Origin: an uncultured bacterium
Lineage (GTDB): Bacteria; Patescibacteriota; Minisyncoccia; UBA6257; GWB1-50-10
Assembly (NCBI GenBank): GCA_963768835.1
Contig: CAVYJB010000001.1
Span: 281,903 to 345,902 of the forward strand
Length of the DNA: 64,000 bases
Direction: 5' to 3'
The notes beneath the pieces are model-generated. The model did not search any database, had not been told where the DNA came from, and saw only the letters and a program-made list of their open reading frames with translations. The position numbers were made by a program, and so were the translations under genes. Each line of letters begins with the position of its first letter. Position 1 is the first letter of the stretch. Positions 5,646-21,514 of this stretch are shown piece after piece.

Positions 5646-6206
5646 ATGAAAACATCGGATACGGCTGTGCAATCAGTAACGGTCATACCGCAGTCATCTA
5701 CAGAAGCCGCTGCGCATCTTATAAAAATCGCTGCGGAGCGACGCGCCCTCGACGAGGTCAACGGGCGCCTCAACCGGAAGGTGGAGGAGCTCAAAGCGGA
5801 TGCAATGACGGAAGCGAAACCACACCAGGAAGAACTCATCCGATTGATTTACGGCCTCTACGAGTACGCAAAGAAAAACCGCGAAATCCTCACCGAGGGC
5901 GGGAAAACGAAAACCGTCGAGCTGCCAACGGGCAGCTTCGGGTGGCGCTTCAACCCCCCATCTGTCAGCGTCCGCAAAGTAAAAGAGGTTATTAAATACC
6001 TGAGGAGCAAACGCCTGACACGCTTCATACGAGTCAAGGAAGAGGTCGACAAGAAGGCGCTTGGCAAGTCGCCCAAGACAGCCCTCACCATCAAGGGAGT
6101 GACGATCAAACAGGAGGAGGTCTTCGTTGTAACACCGAACGAGCTCAGGGCGGAAATCCCCATGCGGATCGTGGCTCTGGAAAAACTCGAGAAGAAACGG
6201 GCATAG
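5646..6206 (+). CDS. phage Mu Gam-like DNA-end-binding (host-nuclease inhibitor) family protein
   Basis: AGGAGG sits 6 nt upstream of ATG. The coiled-coil N-terminus and the block EILTEGGKTKTVELPTGSFGWRFNPPSVSVRKVKEVIKYLRSKRLTRFIRVKEEVDKKAL align, from memory, with Mu Gam (ELTNGGKVKTANLVTGDVSWRVRPPSVSIRGMDAVMETLERLGLQRFIRTKQEINKEAI). Confidence 0.7.
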   Translation: MKTSDTAVQSVTVIPQSSTEAAAHLIKIAAERRALDEVNGRLNRKVEELKADAMTEAKPHQEELIRLIYGLYEYAKKNREILTEGGKTKTVELPTGSFGWRFNPPSVSVRKVKEVIKYLRSKRLTRFIRVKEEVDKKALGKSPKTALTIKGVTIKQEEVFVVTPNELRAEIPMRIVALEKLEKKRA

Positions 6207-6239: not shown

Positions 6240-6265
6240 AATCCCCTTCGGGGGATTTTTGTTTA
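6240..6265 (+). terminator. rho-independent terminator after the Gam-like gene
   Basis: ATCCCCttcgGGGGAT followed by tttttgttt. Confidence 0.55.
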
Positions 6266-6747
6266 TATCGACAATCGCCCGAGCCTTGGATACCATTATG
6301 GGAATGACGGAAAGCCAACAGAAACAAATTATCTCGCTTGCCCGCTCGCTTATCGGGAAGCCCTACAAGTACGGCGCGACGCCGGAGGAGGCCCCAGATG
6401 TATTTGATTGCTCGTCCTTCATACAGTACATCTTCAAACAGATCGGGGTTCAGATCCCCCGCGTGAGCACCTTCCAGGCGGCGGACCCGCAGGGAACTGA
6501 AATCATTCCTTCGGAGGACCTGTCGAACCTGCAGCCGGGTGATCCTATCTTCACCCGCGGCACCATCGGGAGATACAACGACGAGTTATTCGGGGGAGAA
6601 AGATAGACATTGGCCACGTCGCGATGATCTCTGGAAACGGGAATGTGTTGCACTCGCGGCATCGATTGGGGGGCGTTACGGAACAAAAAATAGCCGAGCT
6701 CACCTCGGAACCGAACTATAAGATCGTGCTGGTGAAACGTTTCTAAT
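6259..6747 (+). pseudogene. NlpC/P60 (C40) cell-wall peptidase, interrupted by a frameshift in a G5 run near 6592-6596
   Basis: N-part (frame 1) contains GKPYKYGATPEEAPDVFDCSSFIQYIF with the catalytic Cys context. The C-part IDIGHVAMISGNGNVLHSRH (catalytic His context) continues in another frame from ~6600 to the TAA at 6745-6747. Inserting one G in cgggggag restores a single 162-aa ORF. The listed start at 6259 is a TTG; the ATG at 6298 is an alternative. Confidence 0.6.
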
Positions 6748-7304: not shown

Positions 7305-7380
7305 GCGGGCGTAGCTCAGCCCGGTTTAGAGCGTCCCCCTGTCACGGGGAAGGCCGTGGGTTCAAATCCCATCGCCCGCG
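7305..7380 (+). tRNA. tRNA-Asp (GTC)
   Basis: GCGGGCG/TA/GCTC-AGCCCGGTTTA-GAGC/G/TCCCC-CTGTCAC-GGGGA/AGGCC/GTGGG-TTCAAAT-CCCAT/CGCCCGC/G. Confidence 0.85.
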
Positions 7381-7388
7381 CAAACCCA

Positions 7389-7419
7389 GAAACCCTGATG
7401 TCGTCAGGGTTTCTTTTTA
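7389..7419 (+). terminator. rho-independent terminator downstream of tRNA-Asp
   Basis: AACCCTGAtgtcgTCAGGGTT followed by tcttttt; the palindromic stem is perfect. Confidence 0.65.
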
Positions 7420-7524
7420 CACCCTTGTGAGACGTTGGAACTGGTCGTTATTAAAGATTCCTACTCTCCGGAAGAAAAAGACCCCGTTCATATCGAACGG
7501 GGTCAACATCAAGAACCAAAGAGG

Positions 7525-8208
7525 TCAGCTGCGGGAGAACACGCAAGAGCCATCGTCCCACCTGTCGTCATCCAGGCCGATCGCATTCAGGTCCCACACG
7601 CGGAAACCAGAGCCCCAGCGCACGCGCACCGCAACCACGCGCGAATCTTCCAGTCGAATATAGAAGATGTTGGCGTAGCCGTTCGTGAGGAGGATTCCAT
7701 CCTCACCGTTCGGTTGCCTAGTGAGCAGATCACGAATAATCACAGCGAACTCTCCTGCGGTAAAGGGTCTCGGTTGCCCGAGCTCGTTCAGGATGGCCGA
7801 GTCATACATATACTCGGTGAGCTGGGTCTTCATAAGATTGCCCTGAAACGCCTCAATGGTTTCAGGTATTTCCTTGAGCACCCAGTCTGCGAAGCTGTCC
7901 CCGAAGTAGAGCTTCACGGGACCGGTCTTCATGAAGAAGGAGTGTTTGGGAAAAGGCGCGTTGGCCACCCTGAACGCGGCGATGAGCTGCCTCAGGGATT
8001 TCAGAGCGAGGCCCTTCGCTCCATTCGTTCCGGCTACGATGAGTCCGGCAATCATTCCCGCCATCTGGGGAATCAGGTTATTCTTCGACTTCAATGCGTC
8101 GAAGATTTGCTCCTCCGTCACATTCTGCTTCTTCAGTTCCTTGAAGAGCGCGGAGAAGAAGTCCACCACGAACATCAGGGCTTGCATCACCAGCGATTTG
8201 CGTGCCAT
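7525..8208 (-). CDS. hypothetical protein (228 aa from MARKSLV...), cargo gene bracketed by the duplicated tRNA-Asp 3' flank
   Basis: ATG (cat 8206-8208) is preceded by GGAGGTG. No motif was recognised by eye. The overlapping plus-strand ORF 7435..8445 is rejected as antisense. Confidence 0.5.
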   Translation of the reverse strand: MARKSLVMQALMFVVDFFSALFKELKKQNVTEEQIFDALKSKNNLIPQMAGMIAGLIVAGTNGAKGLALKSLRQLIAAFRVANAPFPKHSFFMKTGPVKLYFGDSFADWVLKEIPETIEAFQGNLMKTQLTEYMYDSAILNELGQPRPFTAGEFAVIIRDLLTRQPNGEDGILLTNGYANIFYIRLEDSRVVAVRVRWGSGFRVWDLNAIGLDDDRWDDGSCVFSRS

Positions 8209-8291
8209 ATGGCACCTCCAGTATTGTGGTTTTCCATCACTCCGTCGTTTGGTCGGGAGCATCGGAAAAACCATTGGGAAAGAACGACATC

Positions 8292-8320
8292 GTTATACTA
8301 TGACAATTTGTACATGTCAA
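8292..8320 (-). promoter_or_regulatory. sigma70-like promoter (TTGACA-17 nt-TATAAC) reading toward the 7525..8208 gene
   Basis: Minus strand reads TTGACAtgtacaaattgtcatagTATAAC. The -35 is consensus and the spacing is 17 nt. The -10 ends about 84 nt upstream of the ATG. Confidence 0.45.
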
Positions 8321-8350
8321 GCATATCCTCACTACTACCTCTAGTGTACC

Positions 8351-8395
8351 AGCTTCGCCACAAAAATCGGCTCCTTCTGCTCCGCAGTAGAGAGC
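8351..8395 (+). repeat. partial copy (5' half) of the ~75-bp intergenic direct-repeat family
   Basis: CCAGCTTCGCCACAAAAATCGGCTCCTTCTGCTCCGCAG shares CTTCGCCACAAAAA...CCTTCTGC with the three full copies. Confidence 0.5.
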
Positions 8396-8454
8396 ACCTA
8401 AGAATTCAGTTTGAAAGGAGCCTCGGCGCAATTAGGACGATTTAGATATATATC

Positions 8455-8527
8455 CAACTTCGCCACAAAAACAGACCCCCCGTACCCCCGTATCGCAGTT
8501 CCAATAGCGTCCACGAGGGCGCGCAAA
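8455..8527 (+). repeat. ~75-bp intergenic direct repeat, copy B, fused to a second copy of the tRNA-Asp 3' flank/terminator (8513..8590)
   Basis: CAACTTCGCCACAAAAACAGACCCCCCGTACCCCCGTATCGCAGTTCCAATAGCGTCCACGAGGGCGCGCAAACC. The GTTCCAATAGCGTCCACGAGGGCGCGCA core is identical in copies C and D. Confidence 0.7.
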
Positions 8528-8532
8528 CCTAG

Positions 8533-8561
8533 AAACCCTGATACCATCGGGGTTTCTTTTT
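8533..8561 (+). terminator. degenerate second copy of the tRNA-Asp-flank terminator
   Basis: AGAAACCCTGATACCATCGGGGTTTCTTTTTGCACCC versus AGAAACCCTGATGTCGTCAGGGTTTCTTTTTACACCC at 7384..7420. The stem is weakened by substitutions. Confidence 0.45.
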
Positions 8562-8688
8562 GCACCCCTACGGGATGTTGGAACTACTCAAGATTTTTAT
8601 AAAAATCGGCGGGCCTCACTCTCGTTATAGGGAGTTGACGCTCAAAGAGGTCGGAGTCTTATCCGACTTAAGCTGGGTTATCCTAAAA

Positions 8689-9447
8689 TTATTTTATACC
8701 CACTATTCCTGTAACATCCAACGGCCGTTCCATAAAACCATTAATCAGTCTTCTCTTGCAATGTTCCGCAAGCGCCTTGCGTGCTTGATCCTTTTTATCT
8801 TCTGAAACTAGGTTCCACAGACTCACTGACTGAAAATAGGCAATCGCGTGGTCGAGCGTAAAATGCTCGCTAACTTCTTTTTTCTCCTTGGTGACTTTTT
8901 GGAACCCACCCTCCTGAAGAATATTCTCCGGGTCATAATGCCTCTTTGCATCGGGAATTTCGCATGAAATAAATGGTTTTAATATCATACGGTATTCCTT
9001 TTTGAAATTGCCGGAATCGTTCTTGTTCACTACGAAAAATATTCCACCGGGCTTCAATACCCTCTTTATCTCTTTCACTGATTCCCTGTCACAGAACCAA
9101 TGAAATGCACTAAAGGCAGTAACCGCATCAAACGTTTCGTTGGAAAATGGCAGATGATTTGCAGGAGCGATGCAGTACGTTGCCTCACTTTCGTTTTTTT
9201 CTTCTGCAATCCGAATCATCTCCGGATCATTGTCGGCCCCGAAAATCTTTGCACTAGGCCGTAACAATTGCCGGGTCGAAATCCCCGTCCCACATCCAAG
9301 GTCTAACACCTTCGGCTGTTCACAGACGACTAATCGCCAAAAGCAATCAATAGTCTCTTGAGGAAATCCTTGTCGGGCTTCATCGTATTGCTTCCCTAGA
9401 TTTCCAAACTTTCCGTACCCTGGTTTTGCCTTGGTCACTTGTCGCAC
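8689..9447 (-). CDS. class I SAM-dependent methyltransferase
   Basis: VLDLGCGTGIST motif I and LKPGGIFFV motif. GTG start at 9447 is preceded on the coding strand by TGgTAGAAT, then 6 nt, then GTG. Local GC is visibly lower than the window average. Confidence 0.7.
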   Translation of the reverse strand: MRQVTKAKPGYGKFGNLGKQYDEARQGFPQETIDCFWRLVVCEQPKVLDLGCGTGISTRQLLRPSAKIFGADNDPEMIRIAEEKNESEATYCIAPANHLPFSNETFDAVTAFSAFHWFCDRESVKEIKRVLKPGGIFFVVNKNDSGNFKKEYRMILKPFISCEIPDAKRHYDPENILQEGGFQKVTKEKKEVSEHFTLDHAIAYFQSVSLWNLVSEDKKDQARKALAEHCKRRLINGFMERPLDVTGIVGIK

Positions 9448-9573
9448 AGTTATATTCTACCACGCGGCTCCCTTCAGATATTGACAAAATATAAATATAA
9501 TGTATTATGTGCGCAGAAACAGAGCCTATTAAGGGCTTTAACAATTCATTTAGACAACTGAGAGGGGTATTGT

Positions 9574-10325
9574 ATGGAACGTCTAGCACGGTGGCAATCT
9601 CATATCACGAGTGTTCGAAGGGATAGGCTCGTGACCTACAGCGTCAATCAGGAGAAGATAATAAGAACGTTCTCGTATGAGGCGATGGTCTACTTCTTGT
9701 TGTTTGGAAAACAACCGTCGCGCGTCACGGCAAGGATGCTCCGAGCCGTCATTCTATCCCACTGCAGCCATGGTATTACCGGACAAAGCACACTTGCGGT
9801 TCGCATGGCGACCGATTGTCGTTCGCCGTTTCTCAACGCCGCGCTAGGAGGGTTCTTGTTGGTTCAGGCACCTTTCATCAAGGAGGACTCGAGATGGCGA
9901 TGAAAGAGCTCCAATCTGCGCTAGCAGCTCCGAGTATTGAGAAATATATTGCCGACAAGCTCTCAAGGAAGCAAATAGTCTACGGTTACGGGCATCGTTT
10001 TCACAAACATGATCCGCGCGCCCGTTGCTTAATGCAATTGTGTCGCCGGCATTCTTTCCTGGGTCCTCACGTAAGGGCGGCAATGAAGATTGACCAAATT
10101 CTGGGAAAGAGGAAGCAGATTCACATGAACATCGAAGCAGCGTGTGGATCTATTCTCCTGGATATAGGATTCCCGTCGGAGATCGCCGCGTTAATCATAC
10201 TCATCGGTCGAGGTCCAATGTTCGCCGCAGCGTACATGGAGCGACTTGCATCCTCACGAAAAACCTTCCAGAAGGTAAAGGTGTTTGATCTTATACCAAC
10301 ACGAAGAGGGCGACGACATGCCTAG
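9574..10325 (+). pseudogene. citrate synthase/citryl-CoA lyase-like gene split by a frameshift near 9850-9856
   Basis: Frame A (9574..9903) ends ...SPFLNAALGGFLLVQAP. Frame B (9816..10325) carries GTFHQGGLEMAMKEL and the GYGHRFHKHDPRA block resembling the citrate-synthase signature G[FY]GH.VY...DPR. One missing base next to the GGG at 9850-9852 would join them into about 250 aa. Confidence 0.5.
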
Positions 10326-11031
10326 ATCATTGGTGTATGCGGTAATCCCAGCGCGTGGCGGATCAAAAGGACTCCGTGGGAAGAATCTCAGGTTGCTCCA
10401 CGGCCAACCGCTCATCAGTTACATCATTCGTGCCGCGCTTCAAGCACAAACAATCGACAGGGTATTCGTCTCAACAGAGAACGATGAAATAGCGAGGGTT
10501 GCCATGCGGTACGGAGCGAAGGTCATTCGACATCCCAAGTCGCTTTCGACCTCAACCACGTCAACGTTCGGCGTCATCCGGCGTGCGGCAAAAATATTCA
10601 AAAAGAAGTGGCGCCGCCCCGACGTATTGGTGACCATGCGGGCGACTTCCCCACTTTGTGAGCCAACTGACGTCGATAATGCCGTAAGGCTGCTCTTCAG
10701 AAAAAATGCTGATTCGGTAGTAAGTGTCGCAAAGTCTGACGTTCACCCTCTCCGGATGCTCAGGAAGAATCGAAAGAAGGAGCTGGAGCATTTCGACAAG
10801 CGGAGTAGCGAACGGAATTTTCCCCATCGCCGTCAGTCGTTCGGTGACGTGTACATCAGGAATGGTGCAATCTACGCCACGAGGACTGAGGTTATCGAAA
10901 GGGGCAGCCTGTGGGGGAAACATTGTGTTCCTTATGTGATGCCGAAAGAGCGTTCTGTGAACATCAACGACTGGATTGACTTCTTGCTAGCGGAATCGCT
11001 TCTAAAGCAACGCGTAAAGCCGCTATCGTGA
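10318..11031 (+). CDS. acylneuraminate/nonulosonate cytidylyltransferase family (CMP-sugar synthetase, NeuA/PseF-like)
   Basis: AVIPARGGSKGLRGKNLRLLHGQPLISYII...IDRVFVSTEND is the characteristic N-terminal CTP-transferase motif. ATG at 10318. Confidence 0.7.
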   Translation: MPRSLVYAVIPARGGSKGLRGKNLRLLHGQPLISYIIRAALQAQTIDRVFVSTENDEIARVAMRYGAKVIRHPKSLSTSTTSTFGVIRRAAKIFKKKWRRPDVLVTMRATSPLCEPTDVDNAVRLLFRKNADSVVSVAKSDVHPLRMLRKNRKKELEHFDKRSSERNFPHRRQSFGDVYIRNGAIYATRTEVIERGSLWGKHCVPYVMPKERSVNINDWIDFLLAESLLKQRVKPLS

Positions 11032-11052
11032 TACGATAGCGGCTTTTTATTC
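11016..11052 (+). terminator. rho-independent terminator at the end of the cytidylyltransferase gene
   Basis: AAAGCCGCTATCGtgatacGATAGCGGCTTTttatt; the stop codon lies in the loop. Confidence 0.65.
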
Positions 11053-11119
11053 CAGAATATAGTGAGACTGAAACAGATTTTATTATTCTCCAGTCGCAGT
11101 GTCAGGTACGGTACCTAAA

Positions 11120-11195
11120 CCCAGCCTCGCCACGAAAACAGAGTCCTTCTGCCTTCGTATCGCAGTTCCAATAGCGTCCACGAGAGCGCGCAAAT
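11120..11195 (+). repeat. ~75-bp intergenic direct repeat, copy C
   Basis: CCCAGCCTCGCCACGAAAACAGAGTCCTTCTGCCTTCGTATCGCAGTTCCAATAGCGTCCACGAGAGCGCGCAAATG. Confidence 0.7.
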
Positions 11196-11298
11196 GTTTT
11201 TTGCCGCCTCCTTTGTGGGGCGGCATGAAGCATCTATCGGTCTTGCGTGTTACAAATATCCGGACGCCAGCGTGGTAGATTAAGCGCCGACCACTCGG

Positions 11299-12750
11299 TT
11301 ACGCCACCCTTGATACTGTAAGCTCTAACGCCCTCTCTCGCAGGAGCGCCGCCACAACCCTTGCCCGTATTCCCATGGGACACACGAGGAGCACCTCCCG
11401 ATTTTTCCATTGTTTTGAAAACTTCGAAAGATTACCAGTAATAGCATTCGAATCCATACGCTTTGACCCGGGGAGACGGAAGTGGATAAATTCTCCATGC
11501 GGCCGGACATCGATAATGGATACTCCTTGCCGCAGGGCAACATCATGGCCCTCCTTGATCTGCGCCCACGCTTTTTGGGGAGGTACCGGGTACGCCATTT
11601 CATATGCGTCGCGAGGATCCACATCGAAGCCTAAGAAGGTGGTCCCGGTCTTCCGCTTCGGAGGTCTTATCTCCCCGGGCTTGTTCATCAGTAGTTCCTC
11701 GTGTTCAATGCCTGGGAAATGGGAGGCATCGAGATACTCAAAGTACTCCTCGATATACGGGAACGGACCGTCGGGGCAGATGAAAACCGCGACAATTTCA
11801 CCGTTCTTGCCCCGCAAATCATTAAGCCCTCCTTCGCTCTTCCGCTTTGAGAAAAACTGCAGCAACCCTTGAAGCGCGAGGCCGGAACTTGGCCCGGCGA
11901 CAACGCCCGCCCGGCACAATTCCAAGCTCTTTTCGTACGATTCTTTCGTACCGACCTCTTCGATATGATCGGTCGCCTGTCGCCAGTCGAAAGCGATTTC
12001 TCGGAGAAGATTCGGGGTTCTCACCCCCGGCACGGGATTATTGGGGAGCCGCGCAACACCGACTCTCACGATCTTCGTTGTTCGTTTCTTGAGATACCCT
12101 CCGGCGCCCACCATCGTTCCCGTCGTACCGAGACCGGAGCAGAATACGCGGATCTTCCCTTCCGTCTGTTCCCATATCTGCGGCCCCGTCCATCGTTCGT
12201 GCGCACCCGGGTTCGCTTCGTTGTCATACTGCCCCGGGTTGAACCATCCCCTACGCCTGCCGATTCGCTTCGCCCTGTAGATGCCGCTCTCCTTATCCGC
12301 AGGATCCGGACAGATCGGCTCCTTGTTCACTACGATCTCCGTCCCAAAGAAGCGGAGTAGTTGGAGCTTGCCCCACGTTACCTCGTGCGACACGATGGCC
12401 CTTGTTTTCGGGATCCCGAACAGCCTCCCGATCACCGCCAAGGAGAAAACGGTGTTTCCAGAGGAGTTTTCGATCAGCGACCGTATACCGCCCAATCCCT
12501 TGGTGCCCCCTCGTTCGAGAAGCATGTTATAGGCCGGAAGAGATTTCACGTTCGCGAGCGGCAGGAAATTCATAAGCTTCGCAAAGACGCGAACTCCGTC
12601 TTCGGCAAATGGGTTGAGATGCGACGGAATCTCCACCAACGGGAGGGGCGGGCTGCGGTCGGGATTCAGGAAATCCTTCACAGCCTCCGGACCGGCGAAG
12701 ACGTTAAACGGTTTTTCGGTTTTGGGAGCGTGTTTTGACATAGTTCTCAA
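11299..12750 (-). CDS. PLP-dependent cysteine synthase family protein fused to a C-terminal rhodanese domain
   Basis: Tryptophan-synthase-beta-fold motifs are present (ENSSGNTVFSLAVIG; CSGLGTTGTMVGAGGYLKK). The C-terminal ~100 aa look like rhodanese (VSIIDVRPHGEFIHFRLPGSKRMD...VLLVCPMGIRARVVAALL with active-site Cys). The listed start overlaps the upstream gene; the true start is probably the MSKHAPK Met at ~12741. Confidence 0.7.
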   Translation of the reverse strand: MRTMSKHAPKTEKPFNVFAGPEAVKDFLNPDRSPPLPLVEIPSHLNPFAEDGVRVFAKLMNFLPLANVKSLPAYNMLLERGGTKGLGGIRSLIENSSGNTVFSLAVIGRLFGIPKTRAIVSHEVTWGKLQLLRFFGTEIVVNKEPICPDPADKESGIYRAKRIGRRRGWFNPGQYDNEANPGAHERWTGPQIWEQTEGKIRVFCSGLGTTGTMVGAGGYLKKRTTKIVRVGVARLPNNPVPGVRTPNLLREIAFDWRQATDHIEEVGTKESYEKSLELCRAGVVAGPSSGLALQGLLQFFSKRKSEGGLNDLRGKNGEIVAVFICPDGPFPYIEEYFEYLDASHFPGIEHEELLMNKPGEIRPPKRKTGTTFLGFDVDPRDAYEMAYPVPPQKAWAQIKEGHDVALRQGVSIIDVRPHGEFIHFRLPGSKRMDSNAITGNLSKFSKQWKNREVLLVCPMGIRARVVAALLRERALELTVSRVA

Positions 12751-13696
12751 AATCGAACGTTTCGTCTATCTGCTTCGTGAGGTCGCCGTACCGTTCGGCG
12801 ATAAACCCCTGCGCAACGTAGCGACGGTGTAGCTCGTAAAGCTTCCGAAGCCGCTTTTTGTAGTCCGGAGTGATTGAGAAAAGCCTTCTTTCGATGTGCG
12901 CCAACAGGGTTTTATTTTCTCCTTCCAACAAATCGACGTTCAGCGCACCGCCTTCCTGGTCCTTCCTACGTAGATATGCAGATTCTTTGAAAAGCCCGAG
13001 GAGTTTTTCCGCCGGGATGGCTTTCTTTATGAATTCCGCGTCAGTTTGGGACCGCACCTTGTTGCCAACCACAAAGAGTGAATCGTAGACCCCCGCTTCT
13101 AGGGCAAGCTTCCGGTATTGCTCGAATACCTCGAGGCCCCGCTTCGTCGGCTCAACGGTGAGCACGAGCATCTCGAATTGCGCGTGGAGCGTGTTTGCAA
13201 AGGCATCAATCCCAGCGACCATATCGGTCACAACGACGCCAGAAGCATCCGCAAGGTGAGAGAGGATGTTCTCAAGGATTGCGAGATTGTTGTGATAACA
13301 GCTGGCGCCGATCTCCTCGCTATCGTAGGTTCCGACGACCAGCAACCGCAGTTTCTCATCGCCCGAGCCAAATCGGGAAAGGACGGGGTCCTGAGGATCG
13401 TCCAAATATATGAGATTCGATTCGGCGGTAGGCGGGGTCGTTTTGCGGAATTGCGCAAGGCCTTTAATGCGTGTATTCCCGCCTTTTAAGTGCGTCTTGA
13501 TGACCCTTGCCGCATCGGGATGCGAGATATGCCTCTCAATCGGCAGCTCGGCTTCAAACCCCAAGAGCCCCCCGAGGTGCATATTCAAATCCGCGTCAAT
13601 GGCGAGCACCGGATGTTTCCTATTGATATATTCGGCAAAGAGAGCGGCCAGCGTTGTTTTCCCCGAACCTCCCTTGCCTACAAAAGCAATCCTCAT
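12704..13696 (-). CDS. CooC/MinD/ParA-family P-loop ATPase
   Basis: MRIAFVGKGGSGKTTLAALFA deviant Walker A; DADLNMHLGG; VVTDMVAGIDAF. Start is taken at MRIAF (cat 13694-13696); an upstream Met at 13732 is also possible. Confidence 0.65.
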   Translation of the reverse strand: MRIAFVGKGGSGKTTLAALFAEYINRKHPVLAIDADLNMHLGGLLGFEAELPIERHISHPDAARVIKTHLKGGNTRIKGLAQFRKTTPPTAESNLIYLDDPQDPVLSRFGSGDEKLRLLVVGTYDSEEIGASCYHNNLAILENILSHLADASGVVVTDMVAGIDAFANTLHAQFEMLVLTVEPTKRGLEVFEQYRKLALEAGVYDSLFVVGNKVRSQTDAEFIKKAIPAEKLLGLFKESAYLRRKDQEGGALNVDLLEGENKTLLAHIERRLFSITPDYKKRLRKLYELHRRYVAQGFIAERYGDLTKQIDETFDFENYVKTRSQNRKTV

Positions 13697-13737
13697 GCCC
13701 CTAACGATACAGACCACACTCTTCGAATACAAGTTAT

Positions 13738-13765
13738 TTGCAAGTAGTTTGCATTTAGATATAAT
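13738..13765 (+). promoter_or_regulatory. promoter-like TTGCAA-16 nt-TATAAT ending 6 nt before the fur-family start codon (leaderless-type); direct TTTGCA repeats overlap it
   Basis: ttatTTGCAAgtagTTTGCAtttagaTATAATgggaaaATG. Confidence 0.45.
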
Positions 13766-13771
13766 GGGAAA

Positions 13772-14236
13772 ATGCCAAAGAAAGATTTTTTCCGCGACAT
13801 ATTGAGAAAAAGCGGCTATAAAGCAACACCTTCCCGGCTCGCGATTCTTGGCGTCTTTAAGGAAACGAGAAATCCGATGAGCGCCCAGGAGATTATCGAC
13901 GCGCTTCCCTCGGATACCGACCAGGCCACCGTCTATCGGACGCTCAAGCTATTGAATGAGAAAGGAGTCATCAAGCAAATCGACCTGCGGCACAACCATG
14001 CCCATTACGAACTTGCCGACCTGAAGGAGCACCATCACTTGGTGTGCGTGCGCTGCGGTAGGATCGAGGACGTGCACCACTGCGGCGCCCTGGCTGTTCA
14101 GGACGCAGTTCTCAAGAGCTCGAGGCACTTTGCGGAAATCAGCAGCCATTCGCTTGAGTTCTATGGCATTTGCACTGCCTGCGTCAAAAAAAGCGAGGCT
14201 GCGCATGTCGCTCCCCATCGCAGTGCACCGCTCTAG
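13772..14236 (+). CDS. Fur-family metalloregulator (Fur/Zur/Nur/PerR-type)
   Basis: Winged-helix N-terminus (RLAILGVF...MSAQEI) and the HHHLVCVRCGRIEDV...C metal-site motifs. Confidence 0.8.
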   Translation: MPKKDFFRDILRKSGYKATPSRLAILGVFKETRNPMSAQEIIDALPSDTDQATVYRTLKLLNEKGVIKQIDLRHNHAHYELADLKEHHHLVCVRCGRIEDVHHCGALAVQDAVLKSSRHFAEISSHSLEFYGICTACVKKSEAAHVAPHRSAPL

Positions 14237-14246
14237 TAGACCACCC

Positions 14247-15431
14247 ATGAAGCATTTCATTCGACACCTGAATCGTCGTCGGAGAATGTACCTTGAGATA
14301 GCTCTTGCGGTCATCGTCATTGTCGGGTGTTCCCTCTTGTATCGCGCGGAGGAAACGAACATTGATGCCTATCTCGCGACGACATTCCCAAGCCCTGCGA
14401 TCAGTCTCGGTGAGGTTATCTCGGTCAGCCCAGCGACAGGTACGATAGGTGCCTATCCCACCTCCCACGTCTCGGTATTATTGCTGACGGGCATGGATAC
14501 AGGAACGACAACCCAGATTACCAGCCAGTCAGGGGATAGTTCGGTCAAGAATAGCTATCTCCAAGTGGTCCCGGGCGAGAAGGTCCTCCTCGCGAAAGAC
14601 GACATGAGTCGTTCTGGCGGAGAGTCCTACTACATCACCGACCGATTCCGATTACCGGCGATCCTTTTTATCATCCTTCTGTTTGTTGCGGTGGCGGTAC
14701 TGTTCGGGCGACTACGGGGATTCACCTCTATTGTGGGATTTGGAATAAGCGTCGGAGTGCTTGGATGGTACGTGGTGCCCCAAATTCTGGAGGGCACCGA
14801 TCCCCTCACCGCTTGTCTTATCGGAGCAGCGGGGATTGCACTCGTATCGCTCTACCTTGCACACGGGTTCAACACGCGAACGACTCTCGCGCTCTGTGGG
14901 ACATTAATTGCACTGGCCGTTTCTGCACTCCTCGCCATTCTTTTCGTCTCAGCTTCGCGGCTCGTCGGTCTGGCGACCGAAGAGTCGTTCGCGGTGGCAA
15001 TCGGGAACGGCACCAGTTTAAGCCTCAGGGGCATTCTTCTCGGAGGCATCATTATTGGGACTCTTGGCGTATTGGACGACGTGACGATCGGACAGTCCGC
15101 CACGGTCGCAGAACTCAATGATGCCAACCCAACACTGGGCTTCAGGGAGTTGTATCGGCGGGGAATGTCGGTGGGTCGAGAGCACATCGCCTCACTCATC
15201 AACACGTTGTTCCTCGCGTACGCGGGTGTTGCCCTGCCGATCATCCTCTATATTGCAGCTTTCCAGAGCAAAATCCCGCTATGGCTCACGGTGAACGGTG
15301 AACCAATCGCCGAGGAGATTGTCCGCACCATGGTGGGGAGCATCGGCATCATCTTTGCTGTTCCTATCACCACGGTTCTCGCGGCTTACTACTACGGCAA
15401 ACACATACATAGAAAGAAAGAGGGTGTATAA
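14247..15431 (+). CDS. YibE/F-family integral membrane protein
   Basis: Multi-pass hydrophobic profile with the YibE/F-like pattern LGVLDDVTIGQSATVAEL...REHIASLINTLFLAYAG. Start is taken at MKHFIRH (ATG 14247), just after the fur stop. Confidence 0.65.
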   Translation: MKHFIRHLNRRRRMYLEIALAVIVIVGCSLLYRAEETNIDAYLATTFPSPAISLGEVISVSPATGTIGAYPTSHVSVLLLTGMDTGTTTQITSQSGDSSVKNSYLQVVPGEKVLLAKDDMSRSGGESYYITDRFRLPAILFIILLFVAVAVLFGRLRGFTSIVGFGISVGVLGWYVVPQILEGTDPLTACLIGAAGIALVSLYLAHGFNTRTTLALCGTLIALAVSALLAILFVSASRLVGLATEESFAVAIGNGTSLSLRGILLGGIIIGTLGVLDDVTIGQSATVAELNDANPTLGFRELYRRGMSVGREHIASLINTLFLAYAGVALPIILYIAAFQSKIPLWLTVNGEPIAEEIVRTMVGSIGIIFAVPITTVLAAYYYGKHIHRKKEGV

Positions 15432-15464
15432 TAAAGAAAAGGTCGTGGGAGTATTCTCATAACC

Positions 15465-15605
15465 ATGCCAAAGAAAGCGAAGAAGAAGGTGCGGAAAACG
15501 GGACCTAAGCATATGTACCTCTGCGCGTGCGGTCGCGGCACATGTCGATGCCGCCCCTGCAAGTGCAAGTGCAAGAAGGGGGTCTGCGTGTGCGTTTGTA
15601 AGTGA
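15465..15605 (+). CDS. unannotated 46-aa lysine- and cysteine-rich protein (13 Cys), metallothionein-like
   Basis: ATG 15465 to TGA 15603-15605. Translation is MPKKAKKKVRKTGPKHMYLCACGRGTCRCRPCKCKCKKGVCVCVCK. GTGGGAG lies 13 nt upstream. A TATAAT at 15427-15432 overlaps the yibE/F stop. A strong terminator follows immediately. Confidence 0.45.
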   Translation: MPKKAKKKVRKTGPKHMYLCACGRGTCRCRPCKCKCKKGVCVCVCK

Positions 15606-15613
15606 AAACCACG

Positions 15614-15641
15614 GCCGCCAGGGAGATCCTGGCGGTTTTTG
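15614..15641. terminator. rho-independent terminator (bidirectional, between convergent genes)
   Basis: GCCGCCAGGgagatCCTGGCGGttttt. Confidence 0.65.
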
Positions 15642-15671
15642 GTTACAAGAGGGATGTCCGAATCAGCACGC

Positions 15672-16052
15672 CTACATAGATCCCAAGTAAAGCAAAACCA
15701 AGCCCAGAAGAAAGGCAACGATTCCTCCGAAGATGAGTACGCCCTCCTTGTTGCACTTCTGATACAGCGTAACGGCGGGGCCAGGAAGGAGAAGGAGAAA
15801 AGCTCCTTTGATGACCGTGAGCCACCCAAGGACCGTGATGAGTAACGGGAGACCGGAGGTCCAGGTGTTGTTCATCACGACAATCACGGCACCCATGGTC
15901 AAAATGAGGAAGCTCCACAGCCACAAGAATCCACGGTCCTGAGTTACCTTTCCAAGGGCGGTCGACATAGTCTTTCTGTCGATCACCACTGATAGACCCA
16001 TGACCGCGAAAATAATACCCAGTGCCTGAGTGATAGCGACGGCGACGTTCAT
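15672..16052 (-). CDS. small integral membrane protein (about 4 TM), hypothetical
   Basis: Hydrophobic throughout (AITQALGIIFAVMGLSVVI...LLGLVLLYLG); ATG at 16052. Confidence 0.5.
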   Translation of the reverse strand: MNVAVAITQALGIIFAVMGLSVVIDRKTMSTALGKVTQDRGFLWLWSFLILTMGAVIVVMNNTWTSGLPLLITVLGWLTVIKGAFLLLLPGPAVTLYQKCNKEGVLIFGGIVAFLLGLVLLYLGSM

Positions 16053-16189
16053 ATATTTTATGTTAGTGGTAACGATACACCACCGGCCTTTCTATTATTA
16101 TAACGCTATTGGGAACATTCGCTCCGCGGGTACGATCCGGACCCACTCTAACCCATCGACCGTTGACTAAGTCCGTTTGCAGCCAGGTC

Positions 16190-16256
16190 CGGTATACGAA
16201 TAGGCTCCTTCTGCTCCCGTATTCTGGTTCCAATAGCGTCCACGAGGGCGCGCACT
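16190..16256 (+). repeat. ~75-bp intergenic direct repeat, copy D
   Basis: CCGGTATACGAATAGGCTCCTTCTGCTCCCGTATTCTGGTTCCAATAGCGTCCACGAGGGCGCGCACTAATAATT. Confidence 0.65.
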
Positions 16257-16278
16257 AATAATTGATCTAGCTAGATAT

Positions 16279-16309
16279 AAAAACCGCCGAAATTTACTCG
16301 GCGGTTTCT
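16279..16309 (-). terminator. rho-independent terminator for the giant beta-helix protein gene
   Basis: Minus strand reads AAACCGCCGAgtaaatttCGGCGGTTTttatatc. Confidence 0.6.
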
Positions 16310-16342
16310 ATTTTATCCTGCCTGAATATCTGAATATTACTC

Positions 16343-19300: not shown

Positions 19301-19699
19301 GCTCATGACCTCAAGACCCCAAAGCCAGGTATAGGACCCGCTCACCAGGAAAACGGGATTGCCGTTGGAATTTCCTCCGTCGATAGTGGCCCGCTGGCCG
19401 TTGTAGTTGCGGACGATAATAGGGCTGGATGCGGTCCCGTTAAGATTCGAAGTGAAGGTTCCGAAATACGTTCCTCCCAACAGCCAGATTGTATCGCCCG
19501 CATGGACGCTAGACGGCTGGTTCAGCGCCGTCTGGAGATCCCACGGACTCGACTGCGAGCCGCTGCCTCCCGAACTTCCGTTCGGGGATACGTACCACTG
19601 GGACGCCGCATGTACCTCGACCGGCGGCAGAACCGTTGCCGCTCCTACCGAACCGACGACTACCGCGCACACGAACAGGAGAATGGAAAACTTCTTCAT
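16343..19699 (-). CDS. large secreted multidomain protein: signal peptide, right-handed beta-helix (pectate-lyase-like), Ig-like domains, two identical SH3b-like modules, Pro/Thr linker, C-terminal CBM-like domain
   Basis: Start is taken at MKKFSILLFVCAVVVGSVGA (cat 19697-19699). The N-domain has the NxxGxxxxxIxxN-type beta-helix rhythm. Three Ig-like modules follow (VTFYDGSTIISTDTTSPY..., LSFYVDGSLL..., VQFFVDGTSIG...). The module GDTIRVVLTTDCLNARDNPTIPSNIYKCEVAGAQGTVLAGP...GYTFWKIAYSDGTTGWSDGSKL is repeated twice. The C-terminal ~150 aa look like a sugar-binding beta-sandwich. Confidence 0.75.
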   Translation of the reverse strand: MKKFSILLFVCAVVVGSVGAATVLPPVEVHAASQWYVSPNGSSGGSGSQSSPWDLQTALNQPSSVHAGDTIWLLGGTYFGTFTSNLNGTASSPIIVRNYNGQRATIDGGNSNGNPVFLVSGSYTWLWGLEVMSSSPVKDISGIPVSLANYWPDSKGVPNPSWPKPSILPSGEGMVIDQGSLHPGMKFINCIVHDTRQGFSAWQQADQAEYYGNVVYDNGWTGPDRPHGHGIYIQTIQNTGSKTVADNIFLRAYSTNIDAYAESGFLDGITFNGNVAVNGGERNFLLGATAVAQNPVIENNMIYLDGQGGAGTNMFFMAYPIGYGALGTIGAVVTGNYMAGGTLTLNNNTNMTFSGNTIYDTSVTNDPIPSGNAATTAKPATSKVFIRPNKYEAGRANIVAYWQGTSPVSVDPTGILSLGNSYTVQDAQNYFGPAVASGIWNGGTISIPLGGTLPPKVGNDSRPISHTSSDFAVYVLMRTTGGPISTDTTAPSVTLNGPQNGTSVTGSVSLSASASDVDDAVSSVTFYDGSTIISTDTTSPYQAIWNTASLPNGSSHVLSAKACDTHGNCASTPGITVTVVSTVGADTTAPTITPTAPAVGATLSGTATLSATASDPDDAVSSLSFYVDGSLLSTDTTSPYTASWDTTSVSNGSHTLSEKACDTHSNCATTQGYAVTVSNTALPSAPSVSLTAPSSGATVQGTVTLAASASAHGTGATLASVQFFVDGTSIGTDTTSPYTLSWNTSGLPAGSSHTLTVKATDSLGNTATSQPVTVLAPAVVGGGAFTIGDTIRVVLTTDCLNARDNPTIPSNIYKCEVAGAQGTVLAGPSPDAASGYTFWKIAYSDGTTGWSDGSKLEKVSSGGGGGGGGGAFTIGDTIRVVLTTDCLNARDNPTIPSNIYKCEVAGAQGTVLAGPSPDAASGYTFWKIAYSDGTTGWSDGSKLEKVSSGSAAPVPPVSTPPVSTPPPPTPPSGSSPSLSVYQDSLLSPWQKASFRGVYTYNSTAQVHSGSASIKAVSQPTGSVSFQSWTSPQSISGYTTFQFWVYPTTPITLHTTLQGPSGLYGAPTPALGANQWTEVSIPLANYKLPAGFQLTRIYIGGIGTATTWYLDDVGFGTGQ
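16854..17360. repeat. perfect tandem duplication, 2 x 261 bp (16854..17114 = 17115..17360), inside the giant protein gene
   Basis: Read off directly: tcaccttctcaagtttgctgccgtcagacc...cgtgaaagcaccgccacca occurs twice with a 261-bp period. Identical short ORFs are listed at 17004 and 17265. Confidence 0.8.
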
Positions 19700-19788
19700 G
19701 GTTGGGTTAAAAAAGGAGACCTTTTGATTGACTGGGTATATTATACATCGCCACGAATGGGATTCCATACGTTTAAAGTGCATAATCC

Positions 19789-19821
19789 CAAAAGAAAAGG
19801 AGGCGCCGCGGCGTCTCCTTG
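19789..19821 (-). terminator. rho-independent terminator after the hypothetical gene 19851..20369
   Basis: Minus strand reads GGAGACGCCGCGGCGCCTCCttttctttt (imperfect GC stem followed by a T-run). Confidence 0.45.
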
Positions 19822-19850
19822 TGATTCATACAATATCAGGCCAGAAAGCG

Positions 19851-21499: not shown

Positions 21500-21514
21500 A
21501 CCTAGAAACCGTCT

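What the first reader, a model, noticed from the sequence alone, without database searches (positions are those of the whole stretch)
8560..11100. Low-GC cassette of SAM methyltransferase, frameshifted citrate-synthase-like gene and lone CMP-nonulosonate cytidylyltransferase
GC drops visibly (long AT-rich stretches at 8560-8700 and 9380-9570) relative to the flanks, and the cassette lies exactly between repeat copies B and C. A NeuA/PseF-type cytidylyltransferase has no sugar-synthase partners in view. Given four major pilin paralogues ~18 kb away, an acquired pilin/surface-glycosylation function is a reasonable guess. The citrate-synthase/citryl-CoA-lyase-like gene looks like decaying cargo.
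Basis: partly seen in the sequence, partly recalled or inferred. Interest (0 to 1): 0.5.

Follow-up and report, generated by a model that had tools for sequence, protein, structure and literature searches.

The report
Mobile lyase-like/cytidylyltransferase-like gene module
The low-GC cassette is real and was acquired, but it is one copy of a three-gene unit that travels between very different bacteria, pairing a citryl-CoA-lyase-like protein with a sialic-acid-activating-type enzyme that has lost its usual metal-binding residues, so it is probably an undescribed small-molecule pathway and not a stray pilin-glycosylation gene.

Summary
Window 8689-11031 is the lowest-GC, most compositionally deviant stretch of the window (GC 0.483 against 0.598; z about -3). 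It lies between 79-nt repeat copies at 8449-8527 and 11116-11194. It encodes a SAM methyltransferase (-), a citryl-CoA-lyase (CCL)-fold gene broken by one missing base after nt 9854, and a CMP-sialic-acid-synthetase-fold gene (CT). A relative, L067, has 660 nt where this genome has 14.1 kb downstream of tRNA-Asp, so acquisition is supported.

The interpretation mostly fails. The CT is not lone. In 46 of 48 loci from six phyla it directly follows the CCL-like gene. The two proteins co-evolve (Mantel r 0.88). The methyltransferase lies divergently upstream in 19 of 38 loci. No sugar synthase or glycosyltransferase recurs. The CCL gene is not decayed: one repaired base restores 55 of 56 family-invariant residues, and indel artefacts exist in this dataset. 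The paired CTs replace all three Mg-ligand residues of CMP-NeuAc synthetase (Gln to Arg, Asp to Asn twice). The CCL-like proteins usually carry Glu at the catalytic Asp position.

Best reading: a self-contained, mobile small-molecule module, also found as cargo on ICE and mobilisable elements. Its chemistry is unknown and I found no description of it. Interest 0.58.

The parts
7305..7381 (+). tRNA-Asp (GTC). The 14.1-kb variable segment that holds the cassette starts directly downstream of it.
   Evidence: ARAGORN and Rfam. The collinear relative L067 has tRNA-Asp followed after 660 nt by gatA, whereas the window has 7381 to 21512.
8449..8527 (+). Repeat copy B, a 79-nt att-like junction repeat. 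Its 3' end GCGCGCA resembles the tRNA-Asp 3' end CCGCGCA.
   Evidence: the repeat finder family D2, core pattern search, alignment with tRNA-Asp.
8520..8585 (+). Second copy (83% identical) of the tRNA-Asp 3' tail plus its terminator hairpin; the first copy is at 7377-7442.
   Evidence: the repeat finder D4 and I1.
8689..9447 (-). Class I SAM-dependent methyltransferase, the divergent third gene of the module.
   Evidence: PF08241 E 9e-24. No NCBIfam equivalog cut-off is reached. A homologue lies divergently upstream of the pair in 19 of 38 loci.
9448..9573 (.). AT-rich divergent promoter region (GC 0.357), with a near-consensus sigma-70-like site TTGACA-16-TATTAT at 9481-9508 facing the CCL-like gene.
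9574..10325 (+). Citryl-CoA-lyase-fold gene, interrupted by a 1-nt deletion after nt 9854. The repaired product is 250 aa.
   Evidence: PF00285 and NCBIfam CCL subfamily hits on both halves. DNA alignment to the intact L002 gene. The repaired protein keeps 55 of 56 invariant residues. Best PDB match of the family is 6hxp.
10318..11031 (+). CMP-nonulosonate-synthetase-fold protein (P0001, 237 aa) with Arg108/Asn215/Asn217 in place of the Gln/Asp/Asp Mg-ligand triad. Its start codon overlaps the CCL-like stop by 8 nt.
   Evidence: PF02348 E 6e-31. PseF model 135.9 bits, below the 205.7 cut-off. AF2 pLDDT 94.7, and Foldseek TM 0.83-0.89 to 6ifd, 1eyr and 9ftc. Residue mapping.
11019..11051 (+). 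Intrinsic-terminator-like hairpin (GCCGCTATCG-tgata-CGATAGCGGC, then TTTTTATT) that closes the CCL-like/CT operon. The CT stop codon lies in the loop.
   Evidence: Read directly from the sequence. It was not listed by the consensus scan.
11116..11194 (+). Repeat copy C (82% identical to B).
16178..16256 (+). Repeat copy D (68% identical to B). It closes the next sub-segment, which holds the PALP-rhodanese, CbiA-like ATPase, Fur and YibE/F genes.

Best explanation
Window 8689-11031 is one copy of a conserved, horizontally mobile gene module. It has a translationally coupled pair and, in Patescibacteria, a divergently transcribed class I SAM methyltransferase.

The pair consists of a short citryl-CoA-lyase-fold protein followed by a CMP-nonulosonate-synthetase-fold protein.

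Shown:
- The pair is inherited and transferred as a unit across at least six phyla.
- It has no other constant neighbour.
- In this genome it arrived by lateral transfer, inside a 14-kb composite segment downstream of tRNA-Asp whose sub-segments are separated by att-like 79-nt repeats.

Inferred mechanism:
- The two proteins act together on one small molecule.
- The CCL-fold protein keeps the His/His/Arg/Arg set that holds oxaloacetate or citrate in citrate synthases. It usually has Glu instead of the catalytic Asp. It therefore probably binds or makes a 2-oxo- or 2-hydroxy-polycarboxylate.
- The transferase-fold protein keeps its CTP-binding residues but replaces all three Mg-ligand residues (Gln to Arg, Asp to Asn, Asp to Asn). 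It therefore probably joins CMP to, or otherwise processes, a more anionic non-sugar acid by a changed, possibly metal-independent, mechanism.
- The methyltransferase, or in other lineages a HAD or alpha/beta hydrolase, is an optional tailoring step.

The module is not a nonulosonic-acid or pilin-glycosylation gene set. In this genome the CCL-like gene carries a single 1-nt deletion. That is either a very recent inactivation or an assembly error.
For: Conserved unit:
- The CCL-like gene is followed by the CT in 46 of 48 non-redundant loci with room downstream, and also in L071 and L072.
- Start and stop codons overlap or lie within a few nt of each other (window 10318 against 10325).
- Pairwise-identity matrices of the two proteins correlate at Mantel r 0.88, with 0 of 2000 permutations as high.
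- The methyltransferase is divergent and adjacent in 19 of 38 loci.
- Clustering of neighbours finds no other family in more than 5 loci.

Taxonomic spread: Patescibacteria, Gammaproteobacteria, Verrucomicrobiales, Acidobacteria, Planctomycetia and Dictyobacter.

Mobility:
- The pair is cargo inside ICE transfer genes (L072) and lies beside MobC/relaxase/ArdA (L071).
- Elsewhere it lies beside tyrosine integrases, a serine recombinase, Fic and M78 peptidase genes.

Acquisition here:
- GC z = -3.0 and tetranucleotide z = +3.1.
- The 14.1-kb segment is absent from the collinear relative L067.
- The related genome L002 carries the same triad in a different context, and also at lower GC than its flanks (0.468 against 0.567).

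Active sites:
- Window Asn215 and Asn217 align to Asp209 and Asp211 of N. meningitidis CMP-NeuAc synthetase, and Arg108 aligns to Gln104.
- The Arg (Lys in one)/Asn/Asn signature is present in all 23 subfamily members examined and in none of the 9 more distant homologues.
- N-x-N occurs in essentially all of the closest roughly 51 hits (one has K-I-N).
- D209A abolishes activity and D211A lowers kcat 15,000-fold in the characterised enzyme (PMC2901514).
- The CCL-like family keeps SHG, HQG, GxGHRFH, DPRA and GRxPM. The catalytic-Asp position is Glu in 92 of 120, Gly in 11, Ala in 3, Asp in 3, Lys in 1, Thr in 1 and unassigned in 9.

Folds are confirmed.

Gene integrity: a single-base repair gives 55 of 56 invariant residues.
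Against: - No biochemical datum exists. The substrate proposal rests only on residue conservation and on analogy between the C2 centre of ulosonic acids and the hydroxyl-bearing carbon of citrate-like acids.
- Loss of the Mg ligands could instead mean that the CT-fold protein is not a transferase at all.
- The catalytic-Asp position in the CCL-like protein varies (Gly, Ala or Lys in about 13%), which fits poorly with a strictly conserved Claisen or retro-Claisen step.
- Two loci have the CCL-like gene without the CT (L038, L046). One close CT (P0013, L004) has no CCL-like gene within 8 kb.
- No integrase lies between repeats B and C, or among the ORFs scanned in the 14-kb segment, so the route of entry is inferred.
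- The frequent mobile-element context would also fit a conflict (defence or anti-defence) function.
Confidence: 0.6

Rival explanations
1. First reader's reading. The cytidylyltransferase is a stand-alone NeuA/PseF-type enzyme that activates a nonulosonic acid for glycosylation of pilins or another surface structure. The methyltransferase and a decaying citrate-synthase-like gene are unrelated cargo.
For: The fold and the best PDB and NCBIfam matches are CMP-NeuAc and CMP-Pse synthetases. The CTP-binding residues Arg13 and Lys22 and the RRQ and NGxIY motifs are kept. A type IV pilus cluster lies 15-25 kb away.
Against: The Gln/Asp/Asp metal-ligand triad is replaced in the whole subfamily. The PseF model score of 135.9 is below the 205.7 cut-off. 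No nonulosonate synthase or glycosyltransferase was found in the window or recurring in about 50 loci. The constant partner is the CCL-like gene. The pilus cluster is native synteny, outside the inserted segment.
Confidence: 0.05
2. The pair, with or without the methyltransferase, is a conflict system of mobile elements: a defence, anti-defence or toxin/immunity module that acts on a nucleotide or metabolite. It is not a biosynthetic pathway for a cell component.
For: The distribution is patchy and cross-phylum, at more than 50% identity. The pair is cargo within ICE transfer genes and next to relaxase/ArdA. Integrases, a recombinase, Fic and M78 peptidase genes are neighbours. In the window it sits in a tRNA-adjacent variable region with a Mu Gam-like gene nearby. 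The methyltransferase hits a PADLOC MADS methyltransferase model.
Against: Neither protein of the pair matches any PADLOC model. The methyltransferase hit covers only the generic SAM-binding domain. There is no homologue on any phage record, and none above 33% identity on any PLSDB plasmid. In several Patescibacteria loci the neighbours are housekeeping genes. Both proteins keep metabolite-binding residues typical of enzymes.
Confidence: 0.2
3. The CCL-like gene is a genuine citryl-CoA lyase or citrate synthase of central carbon metabolism, and its adjacency to the transferase is incidental.
For: The best NCBIfam and PDB matches are citryl-CoA lyases. The His/His/Arg residues are kept.
Against: No citryl-CoA synthetase partner recurs. 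The catalytic Asp is Glu or variable. The family is a tight separate cluster (275-416 bits against 224 bits or less for the rest). Adjacency to the CT in 46 of 48 loci and the co-evolution are not incidental. The unit is mobile.
Confidence: 0.05
4. The frameshift is real, and the module in this genome is a recently inactivated remnant, a non-functional passenger of a decaying island.
For: The deletion is present in two assemblies (window and L001). A second gene 3 kb away, NlpC/P60, is also frameshifted. No mobility genes are left in the segment.
Against: There is only one lesion, and 55 of 56 invariant residues are intact. Both assemblies derive from the same run, and they differ by a CC/CCC homopolymer indel at 11331-11333. 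The deletion lies in a short T/C run.
Confidence: 0.45

Closest known systems
CMP-N-acetylneuraminate, CMP-pseudaminate and CMP-Kdn synthetases (PF02348; PDB 6ifd, 1eyr, 1qwj, 9ftc, 9t4z)
   Same: Same fold (TM 0.82-0.89) at 28-34% identity. The CTP-binding Arg and Lys, the TSP motif, the RRQ of the dimerisation arm and the NGxIY motif are conserved.
   Different: All three residues assigned to the catalytic Mg site, Gln104, Asp209 and Asp211 in N. meningitidis numbering, are Arg, Asn and Asn (PMC2901514). The score is below the PseF equivalog cut-off. There is no nonulosonate synthase partner. The obligate partner is a CCL-fold protein instead.
Citryl-CoA lyase of Hydrogenobacter thermophilus (PDB 6hxp) and the CCL module of ATP-citrate lyase
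   Same: Same short (about 250 aa) citrate-synthase-derived fold (TM 0.82; profile E 1e-40). The His, His and Arg residues that bind oxaloacetate or citrate are conserved.
   Different: HQG replaces HGG. The catalytic Asp (ACLY D1026 equivalent) is Glu in 77% of members and Gly, Ala, Lys or Thr in others. No citryl-CoA synthetase partner is present. The family forms its own tight cluster and is carried on mobile elements.
Phosphonate antibiotic pathways that combine TCA-like enzymes with a cytidylyltransferase (phosphinothricin tripeptide Pms/PhpF; FR-900098 FrbC/FrbH). This comparison rests on my own knowledge plus PMC8942020 and PMC9088020, which were found but not read in detail.
   Same: A citrate-synthase-like condensing enzyme and a CMP-forming transferase act on a small non-sugar acid within one pathway.
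   Different: Those clusters have a PEP mutase and many further genes, and use other transferase families. None of this accompanies the pair in any of the roughly 50 loci. This is a functional analogy only, not homology that I tested.
tRNA-adjacent genomic islands with tandem att-site remnants
   Same: The cassette lies directly downstream of tRNA-Asp, deviates in composition, is absent from a collinear relative, and is bounded by direct repeats whose ends resemble the tRNA 3' end. The tRNA tail is duplicated.
   Different: No integrase or other mobility gene was found in the segment. The repeats are 68-82% identical, not exact.

Membership tests
CMP-nonulosonate synthetase (NeuA/PseF/LegF type, PF02348) | Nucleotide-sugar-transferase fold with a dimerisation arm | tested here: met
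   AF2 model pLDDT 94.7. Foldseek TM 0.82-0.89 to 6ifd, 1eyr, 1qwj and 9ftc. PF02348 E 6e-31.
CMP-nonulosonate synthetase (NeuA/PseF/LegF type, PF02348) | CTP-binding residues (Arg12 and Lys21 of the N. meningitidis enzyme) | tested here: met
   Arg13 (Lys in 3 of 32 sequences) and Lys22 are conserved across the alignment.
CMP-nonulosonate synthetase (NeuA/PseF/LegF type, PF02348) | Catalytic Mg-binding residues Asp209 and Asp211, plus Gln104 | tested here: not met
   The window protein has Asn215, Asn217 and Arg108 at the aligned positions. The same holds in all 23 subfamily members examined (Lys for Arg in one), while more distant homologues keep Gln (Glu in one) and D/N-I-D. D209A and D211A cripple the characterised enzyme (PMC2901514).
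CMP-nonulosonate synthetase (NeuA/PseF/LegF type, PF02348) | Curated equivalog score (NCBIfam TIGR03584 PseF) | tested here: not met
   135.9 bits against a cut-off of 205.7.
CMP-nonulosonate synthetase (NeuA/PseF/LegF type, PF02348) | Genomic association with a nonulosonate synthase (NeuB/PseI/LegI) and a transferase | tested here: not met
   None was found among the window ORFs scanned. None recurs in about 50 loci. The rest of the genome could not be searched.
CMP-nonulosonate synthetase (NeuA/PseF/LegF type, PF02348) | CTP plus nonulosonate gives CMP-nonulosonate plus PPi | not testable with these tools
   Needs an enzyme assay.
Citryl-CoA lyase / citrate synthase superfamily (PF00285) | Citrate-synthase large-domain fold in the short CCL form | tested here: met
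   Profile E 1.1e-40 to 6hxp. AF2 pLDDT 88.6 and TM 0.82 to 6hxp.
Citryl-CoA lyase / citrate synthase superfamily (PF00285) | Oxaloacetate/citrate-binding His, His, Arg and Arg (pig CS His238, His320, Arg329, Arg401) and His274 | tested here: met
   SHG, HQG, GxGHR, DPRA and GRxPM are invariant or nearly so in 16 and in 120 sequences. The mapping to pig CS numbering rests on my knowledge of the motifs.
Citryl-CoA lyase / citrate synthase superfamily (PF00285) | Catalytic Asp (pig CS Asp375, ACLY Asp1026) | tested here: not met
   The aligned position is Glu in 92 of 120, Gly in 11, Ala in 3, Asp in 3, Lys in 1, Thr in 1 and unassigned in 9. 6hxp has Asp there.
Citryl-CoA lyase / citrate synthase superfamily (PF00285) | Partner citryl-CoA synthetase, or a TCA/rTCA context | tested here: not met
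   No such neighbour recurs.
tRNA-linked genomic island | Insertion next to a tRNA gene and absence from a collinear relative | tested here: met
tRNA-linked genomic island | Deviant composition | tested here: met
tRNA-linked genomic island | Flanking direct repeats derived from the tRNA 3' end | tested here: inconclusive
   The tRNA tail is duplicated at 8520-8585. Repeats B, C and D end in GCGCGCA, like the tRNA 3' end, but are otherwise unrelated to the tRNA.
tRNA-linked genomic island | Integrase or other mobility gene | tested here: not met
   None among the ORFs scanned in 7.4-21.5 kb. Small ORFs were not all scanned.
Known anti-phage defence systems (PADLOC 2.0) | Match of the component proteins to a system model | tested here: not met
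   No hit for the CCL-like or CT proteins. The methyltransferase hits only through its generic SAM domain.

The most novel reading that the evidence does not exclude
The CCL-fold/CT-fold pair is a new two-enzyme system. A citrate-synthase-derived protein and a CMP-sugar-synthetase-derived protein with its Mg site replaced by Arg/Asn/Asn would together make or process a CMP-linked non-sugar polycarboxylate, or another nucleotide-acid conjugate. Mobile elements would spread it across phyla, Patescibacteria included, either as a new activated metabolite for cell-envelope decoration or as a metabolite-based conflict module.
Probability: 0.3. Interest if true: 0.8.

Novelty: new variant of a known kind. 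Interest (0 to 1): 0.58.

Why it matters
Databases name these two proteins 'citryl-CoA lyase' and 'acylneuraminate cytidylyltransferase'. Read that way, they feed false sialic-acid and rTCA calls into metabolic reconstructions of Patescibacteria and symbionts.

Four things define a concrete, testable unit of unknown chemistry:
- the two genes are strictly linked;
- they co-evolve;
- they move on ICE-type and other mobile elements;
- they carry correlated active-site changes, namely the whole Mg-ligand triad replaced in one and the catalytic Asp replaced in the other.

The intact versions are small, soluble-looking proteins that could be expressed directly. If the product is a CMP-activated non-sugar acid, it would extend the chemistry of the CMP-ulosonate synthetase fold. 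It would also give a first function to a gene pair shared by minimal-genome bacteria and by Proteobacteria, Acidobacteria, Planctomycetes, Verrucomicrobia and Chloroflexota.

Tried and rejected
- Rfam, at gathering and at E up to 5, found nothing at the repeats or in the intergenic regions. There is therefore no riboswitch to hint at a ligand.
- RNAalifold on repeats B, C and D gave only a 6-bp invariant hairpin with no covariation. I dropped the small-RNA idea as untestable with three copies.
- Integron cassette or attC reading: no integrase is present and the repeats are direct, not imperfect palindromes. Rejected.
- Programmed frameshift: there is no slippery motif at 9850-9860. Split genes in other loci (L018 CT, L055 CCL) break at other positions. 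Rejected.
- Rosetta-stone fusion of CCL with CT: the two long representatives, P0361 and P0369, are tandem CCL-CCL duplications. No CCL-CT fusion was found.
- L002 has no flanking repeats around its module.
- Exact-sequence look-ups with my first start codons failed.
Host taxonomy came from PheS hits instead: Patescibacteria or Jorgensenbacteria, at most 70% identical.
- Plasmid and phage collections hold only generic CCL paralogues at 28-33% identity, or nothing.
- Seven literature searches found no paper that describes the pairing.


Full report
**1. What is in the sequence**

ORF listing and Pfam/NCBIfam scans confirm three genes between 8.69 and 11.03 kb:
- A class I SAM methyltransferase at 8689-9447 (-), PF08241 E 9e-24.
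- A citrate-synthase-family gene split over two frames, 9574-9903 and 9816-10325. Both halves match NCBIfam citryl-CoA lyase (CCL) subfamily PRK06224.1-3.
- A PF02348 cytidylyltransferase-family gene (CT).

The CT's true start is ATG 10318 (P0001, 237 aa). It overlaps the CCL-like stop codon (10323-10325) by 8 nt.

The 126-nt spacer between the methyltransferase and the CCL-like gene has GC 0.357. It holds a near-consensus TTGACA-16-TATTAT at 9481-9508.

A clean hairpin plus T-run at 11019-11051 closes the operon (sequence).

**2. Composition and repeats**

The module has GC 0.483, against 0.598 for the rest of the window. That is z = -2.96 among equal-sized sliding windows. Its tetranucleotide distance is z = +3.1, and only overlapping windows rank higher.

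It lies between two copies of a 79-nt direct repeat, B at 8449-8527 and C at 11116-11194 (82% identical). A third copy, D, is at 16178-16256 (68%), and a partial copy is at 8349-8383. The 28-nt core occurs three times, against none expected.

Copy B is followed by a second copy (83%) of the tail and terminator of tRNA-Asp: 7377-7442 is copied at 8520-8585. All three repeats end in GCGCGCA, which resembles the tRNA 3' end CCGCGCA.

Rfam finds nothing at the repeats. The only shared structure is a 6-bp invariant hairpin.

**3. Acquired or native?**

PheS places the host in the Patescibacteria. The best named hits are Patescibacteria group and Jorgensenbacteria, at 70% identity or less.

A relative found through PheS, L067 (GCA_964348705.1), is collinear with the window on both sides. 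The shared order is pheT, pheS, two tRNA-Met, NlpC/P60, C39 peptidase, tRNA-Asp, then gatA, gatC, ligA, pilins and prepilin peptidase.

In L067, tRNA-Asp and gatA are 660 nt apart. In the window they are 14.1 kb apart (7381 to 21512).

The cassette is therefore part of a composite variable segment at tRNA-Asp. Lateral acquisition is supported.

L067 also carries a second copy of the tRNA-Asp 3' end about 240 nt downstream of its tRNA-Asp. This suggests the site is a recurrent integration point in the lineage.

No integrase was found in the window's segment. The route of entry is therefore inferred.

The type IV pilus genes (pilins, PilB/T/C/M/O, prepilin peptidase) belong to the conserved part, not to the insertion.

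**4. The three genes are one unit**

The closest CT homologue with a long contig, P0008 (63% identical), sits in L002 and L003 in the same arrangement: methyltransferase (-), an intact 251-aa CCL-like gene, then the CT. The surrounding genes are different, with enolase on one side and an amidohydrolase and FtsW on the other.

I searched GTDB species genomes and JGI metagenomes with a profile of the CCL-like protein. This gave 52 further non-redundant loci.

| Measure | Result |
|---|---|
| CT directly downstream of the CCL-like gene, among loci with at least 750 nt of room | 46 of 48 |
| Methyltransferase homologue adjacent and divergent, among loci with room upstream | 19 of 38 |
| Other neighbour families present in more than 5 loci | none |
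| Correlation of pairwise identities of the two proteins over 39 loci | Mantel r 0.88; 0 of 2000 permutations as high |

The CT start often overlaps the CCL-like stop codon. The neighbour clusters that did recur are antisense shadow ORFs.

Hosts include Patescibacteria, Gammaproteobacteria, Verrucomicrobiales, Acidobacteria, Planctomycetia and the cultured Dictyobacter arantiisoli.

In most lineages the module's GC follows that of the host. In the window and in L002 it is about 0.10 lower than the flanks. This points to a more recent arrival, probably from a lower-GC Patescibacterium. The nearest homologues are all from uncultured organisms, and the best named one is Andersenbacteria.

**5. 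Mobile context elsewhere**

- In a Ctena orbiculata symbiont, the pair plus an unknown 223-aa gene sits among ICE transfer genes (TraC_F_IV, DUF3438, RAQPRD, TraG, integrase; L072).
- In a Thiodiazotropha MAG, an alpha/beta-hydrolase, the CCL-like gene and the CT form an operon between MobC/relaxase and ArdA (L071).
- Other neighbours are tyrosine integrases (L017, L018), a serine recombinase (L049), Fic (L025), an M78 peptidase (L018) and HAD hydrolases directly adjacent (L058, L049).
- No phage record holds the family. PLSDB plasmids hold only generic CCL paralogues at 28-33% identity.
- PADLOC has no model for either protein of the pair.

**6. The proteins**

*CT-fold protein.*
- The model is confident (pLDDT 94.7). 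It superposes on CMP-Neu5Ac, CMP-Pse and CMP-Kdn synthetases at TM 0.82-0.89.
- The CTP-binding Arg13 and Lys22, and the TSP, RRQ and NGxIY motifs, are kept.
- In the alignment to N. meningitidis CMP-Neu5Ac synthetase (1eyr), the window's Asn215 and Asn217 fall on Asp209 and Asp211, and Arg108 falls on Gln104.
- These three residues are the ones assigned to the catalytic Mg site. D209A abolishes activity and D211A lowers kcat 15,000-fold (PMC2901514).
- The Arg (Lys in one)/Asn/Asn combination is present in all 23 members of the CCL-linked subfamily that I tabulated. It is in none of 9 more distant homologues, which have Gln (Glu in one) and D/N-I-D.
- N-x-N holds for essentially all of the top 51 hits; one has K-I-N.
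- The PseF equivalog model scores 135.9 bits, below its 205.7 cut-off.

*CCL-fold protein.*
- The family profile matches H. thermophilus CCL (6hxp) at E 1e-40. The model has pLDDT 88.6 and TM 0.82 to 6hxp, with the CCL modules of ATP-citrate lyase next.
- The family is very conserved, with a mean pairwise identity of 57% across phyla.
- It keeps SHG, GxGHRFH, DPRA and GRxPM. These correspond to the oxaloacetate/citrate-binding His and Arg residues of citrate synthase.
- It has HQG where CS and CCL have HGG.
- At the catalytic-Asp position it has Glu in 92 of 120, Gly in 11, Ala in 3, Asp in 3, Lys in 1, Thr in 1 and unassigned in 9.
- In an exhaustive profile search, the family stands apart at 275-416 bits, with fragments and other CCLs at 224 bits or less.
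- The two long hits are CCL-CCL tandem duplications, not fusions to the CT.

*Methyltransferase.* It is a generic class I enzyme with no equivalog match. Weak hits include BioC, UbiE, Tam and HvrF.

**7. The frameshift**

Against the intact L002 gene, the window lacks one base after nt 9854: GGGTT-CTTG against GGTTTCCTTG. Inserting one base gives a 250-aa protein that is 66% identical to L002's and keeps 55 of 56 family-invariant residues. The gene is therefore not degraded.

The Logan assembly of the same run (L001) shares the deletion. However, it differs from the window by a CC/CCC homopolymer indel at 11331-11333. L002 and L003 also differ by two indels in 6.5 kb.

Indel artefacts therefore exist in these data. 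The lesion may be an assembly error or a very recent mutation, and I cannot decide between them.

A second frameshift, in NlpC/P60 near 6595, lies in native DNA.

**8. How it most likely works**

*Shown:* there is a two-gene core with an optional third gene. The core is co-inherited, translationally coupled, mobile and self-contained.

*Inferred:* the two core proteins act on one small molecule.
- The CCL-fold protein provides a pocket for a 2-oxo- or 2-hydroxy-polycarboxylate.
- The CT-fold protein still binds CTP. Its active site has gained three units of positive charge relative to NeuA. This fits a more anionic acceptor than a sugar acid, or catalysis without the usual Mg ion.
- The hydroxyl-bearing carbon of citrate-like acids (OH, COO-, two carbon substituents) resembles C2 of ulosonic acids, which is the atom these transferases normally link to CMP.
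- The variable third gene (methyltransferase, HAD phosphatase or alpha/beta hydrolase) looks like a tailoring or release step.

*My probability estimates:*

| Claim | Probability |
|---|---|
| Conserved mobile module, not nonulosonate glycosylation | about 0.85 |
| The specific CMP-polycarboxylate chemistry | about 0.2 |
| A conflict-system role | about 0.2 |

**9. Comparison and novelty**

Both proteins belong by fold to known superfamilies, but each fails a defining catalytic-residue test of its nearest characterised family.

Seven full-text searches found no description of the pairing. Databases label the two genes separately as citryl-CoA lyase or citrate synthase, and as acylneuraminate cytidylyltransferase.

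I rate it a new variant of known kinds. It has moderate to high interest because it is directly testable and corrects misleading annotation.

Noticed in passing
window 6259-6746: The NlpC/P60 endopeptidase gene is frameshifted near 6595-6600. The catalytic His motif (IGHVAMISGNGNVLHS) continues in another frame. The orthologue in L067 is an intact 147-aa gene.
   Followed up: partly
window 5646-6206: A Mu Gam-like gene (PF07352, E 6.5e-34) lies between the second tRNA-Met and NlpC/P60. L067 has only a 65-aa ORF at that place, so this may be a second small insertion.
   Followed up: partly
window 7377-7442 and 8520-8585; gene 7525-8274 (-): The tRNA-Asp tail and its terminator are duplicated (83% identical). 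The two copies bracket an orphan 249-aa gene that has no Pfam, NCBIfam or PADLOC match.
   Followed up: partly
window 11331-11333: The window and the Logan assembly of the same run (L001) differ by one C in a C-run. This changes the C-terminus of the PALP-rhodanese fusion gene (11299-12750, -): 483 aa against 471 aa.
   Followed up: yes
window 11299-15431: The sub-segment between repeats C and D holds four genes: a cysteine-synthase-like PLP enzyme fused to a rhodanese domain, a CbiA/ParA-like ATPase, a Fur-family regulator and a YibE/F membrane protein. This may be a sulfur or metal-related cargo unit of its own.
   Followed up: no
window 16343-19783 (-), repeats 16854-17099 and 17115-17360: A giant surface protein with Big_7 Ig-like domains contains a 246-nt exact tandem-like repeat. 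It lies inside the variable segment.
   Followed up: no
window 52872-54378: A second low-GC spot (GC 0.458 at 53001-53500) lies directly after tRNA-Ser. It is followed by a protein with a 5-hmdU DNA kinase helical domain (HMUDK_hel). The same domain is encoded near the CCL/CT pair in L071.
   Followed up: no
L067, about 240 nt downstream of its tRNA-Asp (locus coordinates about 7680-7700, - strand): The relative that lacks the 14-kb segment also has a second copy of the tRNA-Asp 3' end (CATCGCCCGCGC) and a pair of local repeats. This suggests repeated integration and excision at this tRNA.
   Followed up: partly
proteins P0361 (461 aa) and P0369 (442 aa): These are tandem duplications of the CCL-like domain in one polypeptide. 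The second half lacks the GHRFH motif, so each may be a fused pseudo-heterodimer.
   Followed up: partly
L002 915-3369: The pyruvate phosphate dikinase/PEP-utilising genes are split into four ORFs in the ENA assembly. L002 and L003 differ by two indels in 6.5 kb. This points to indel errors in these assemblies.
   Followed up: partly
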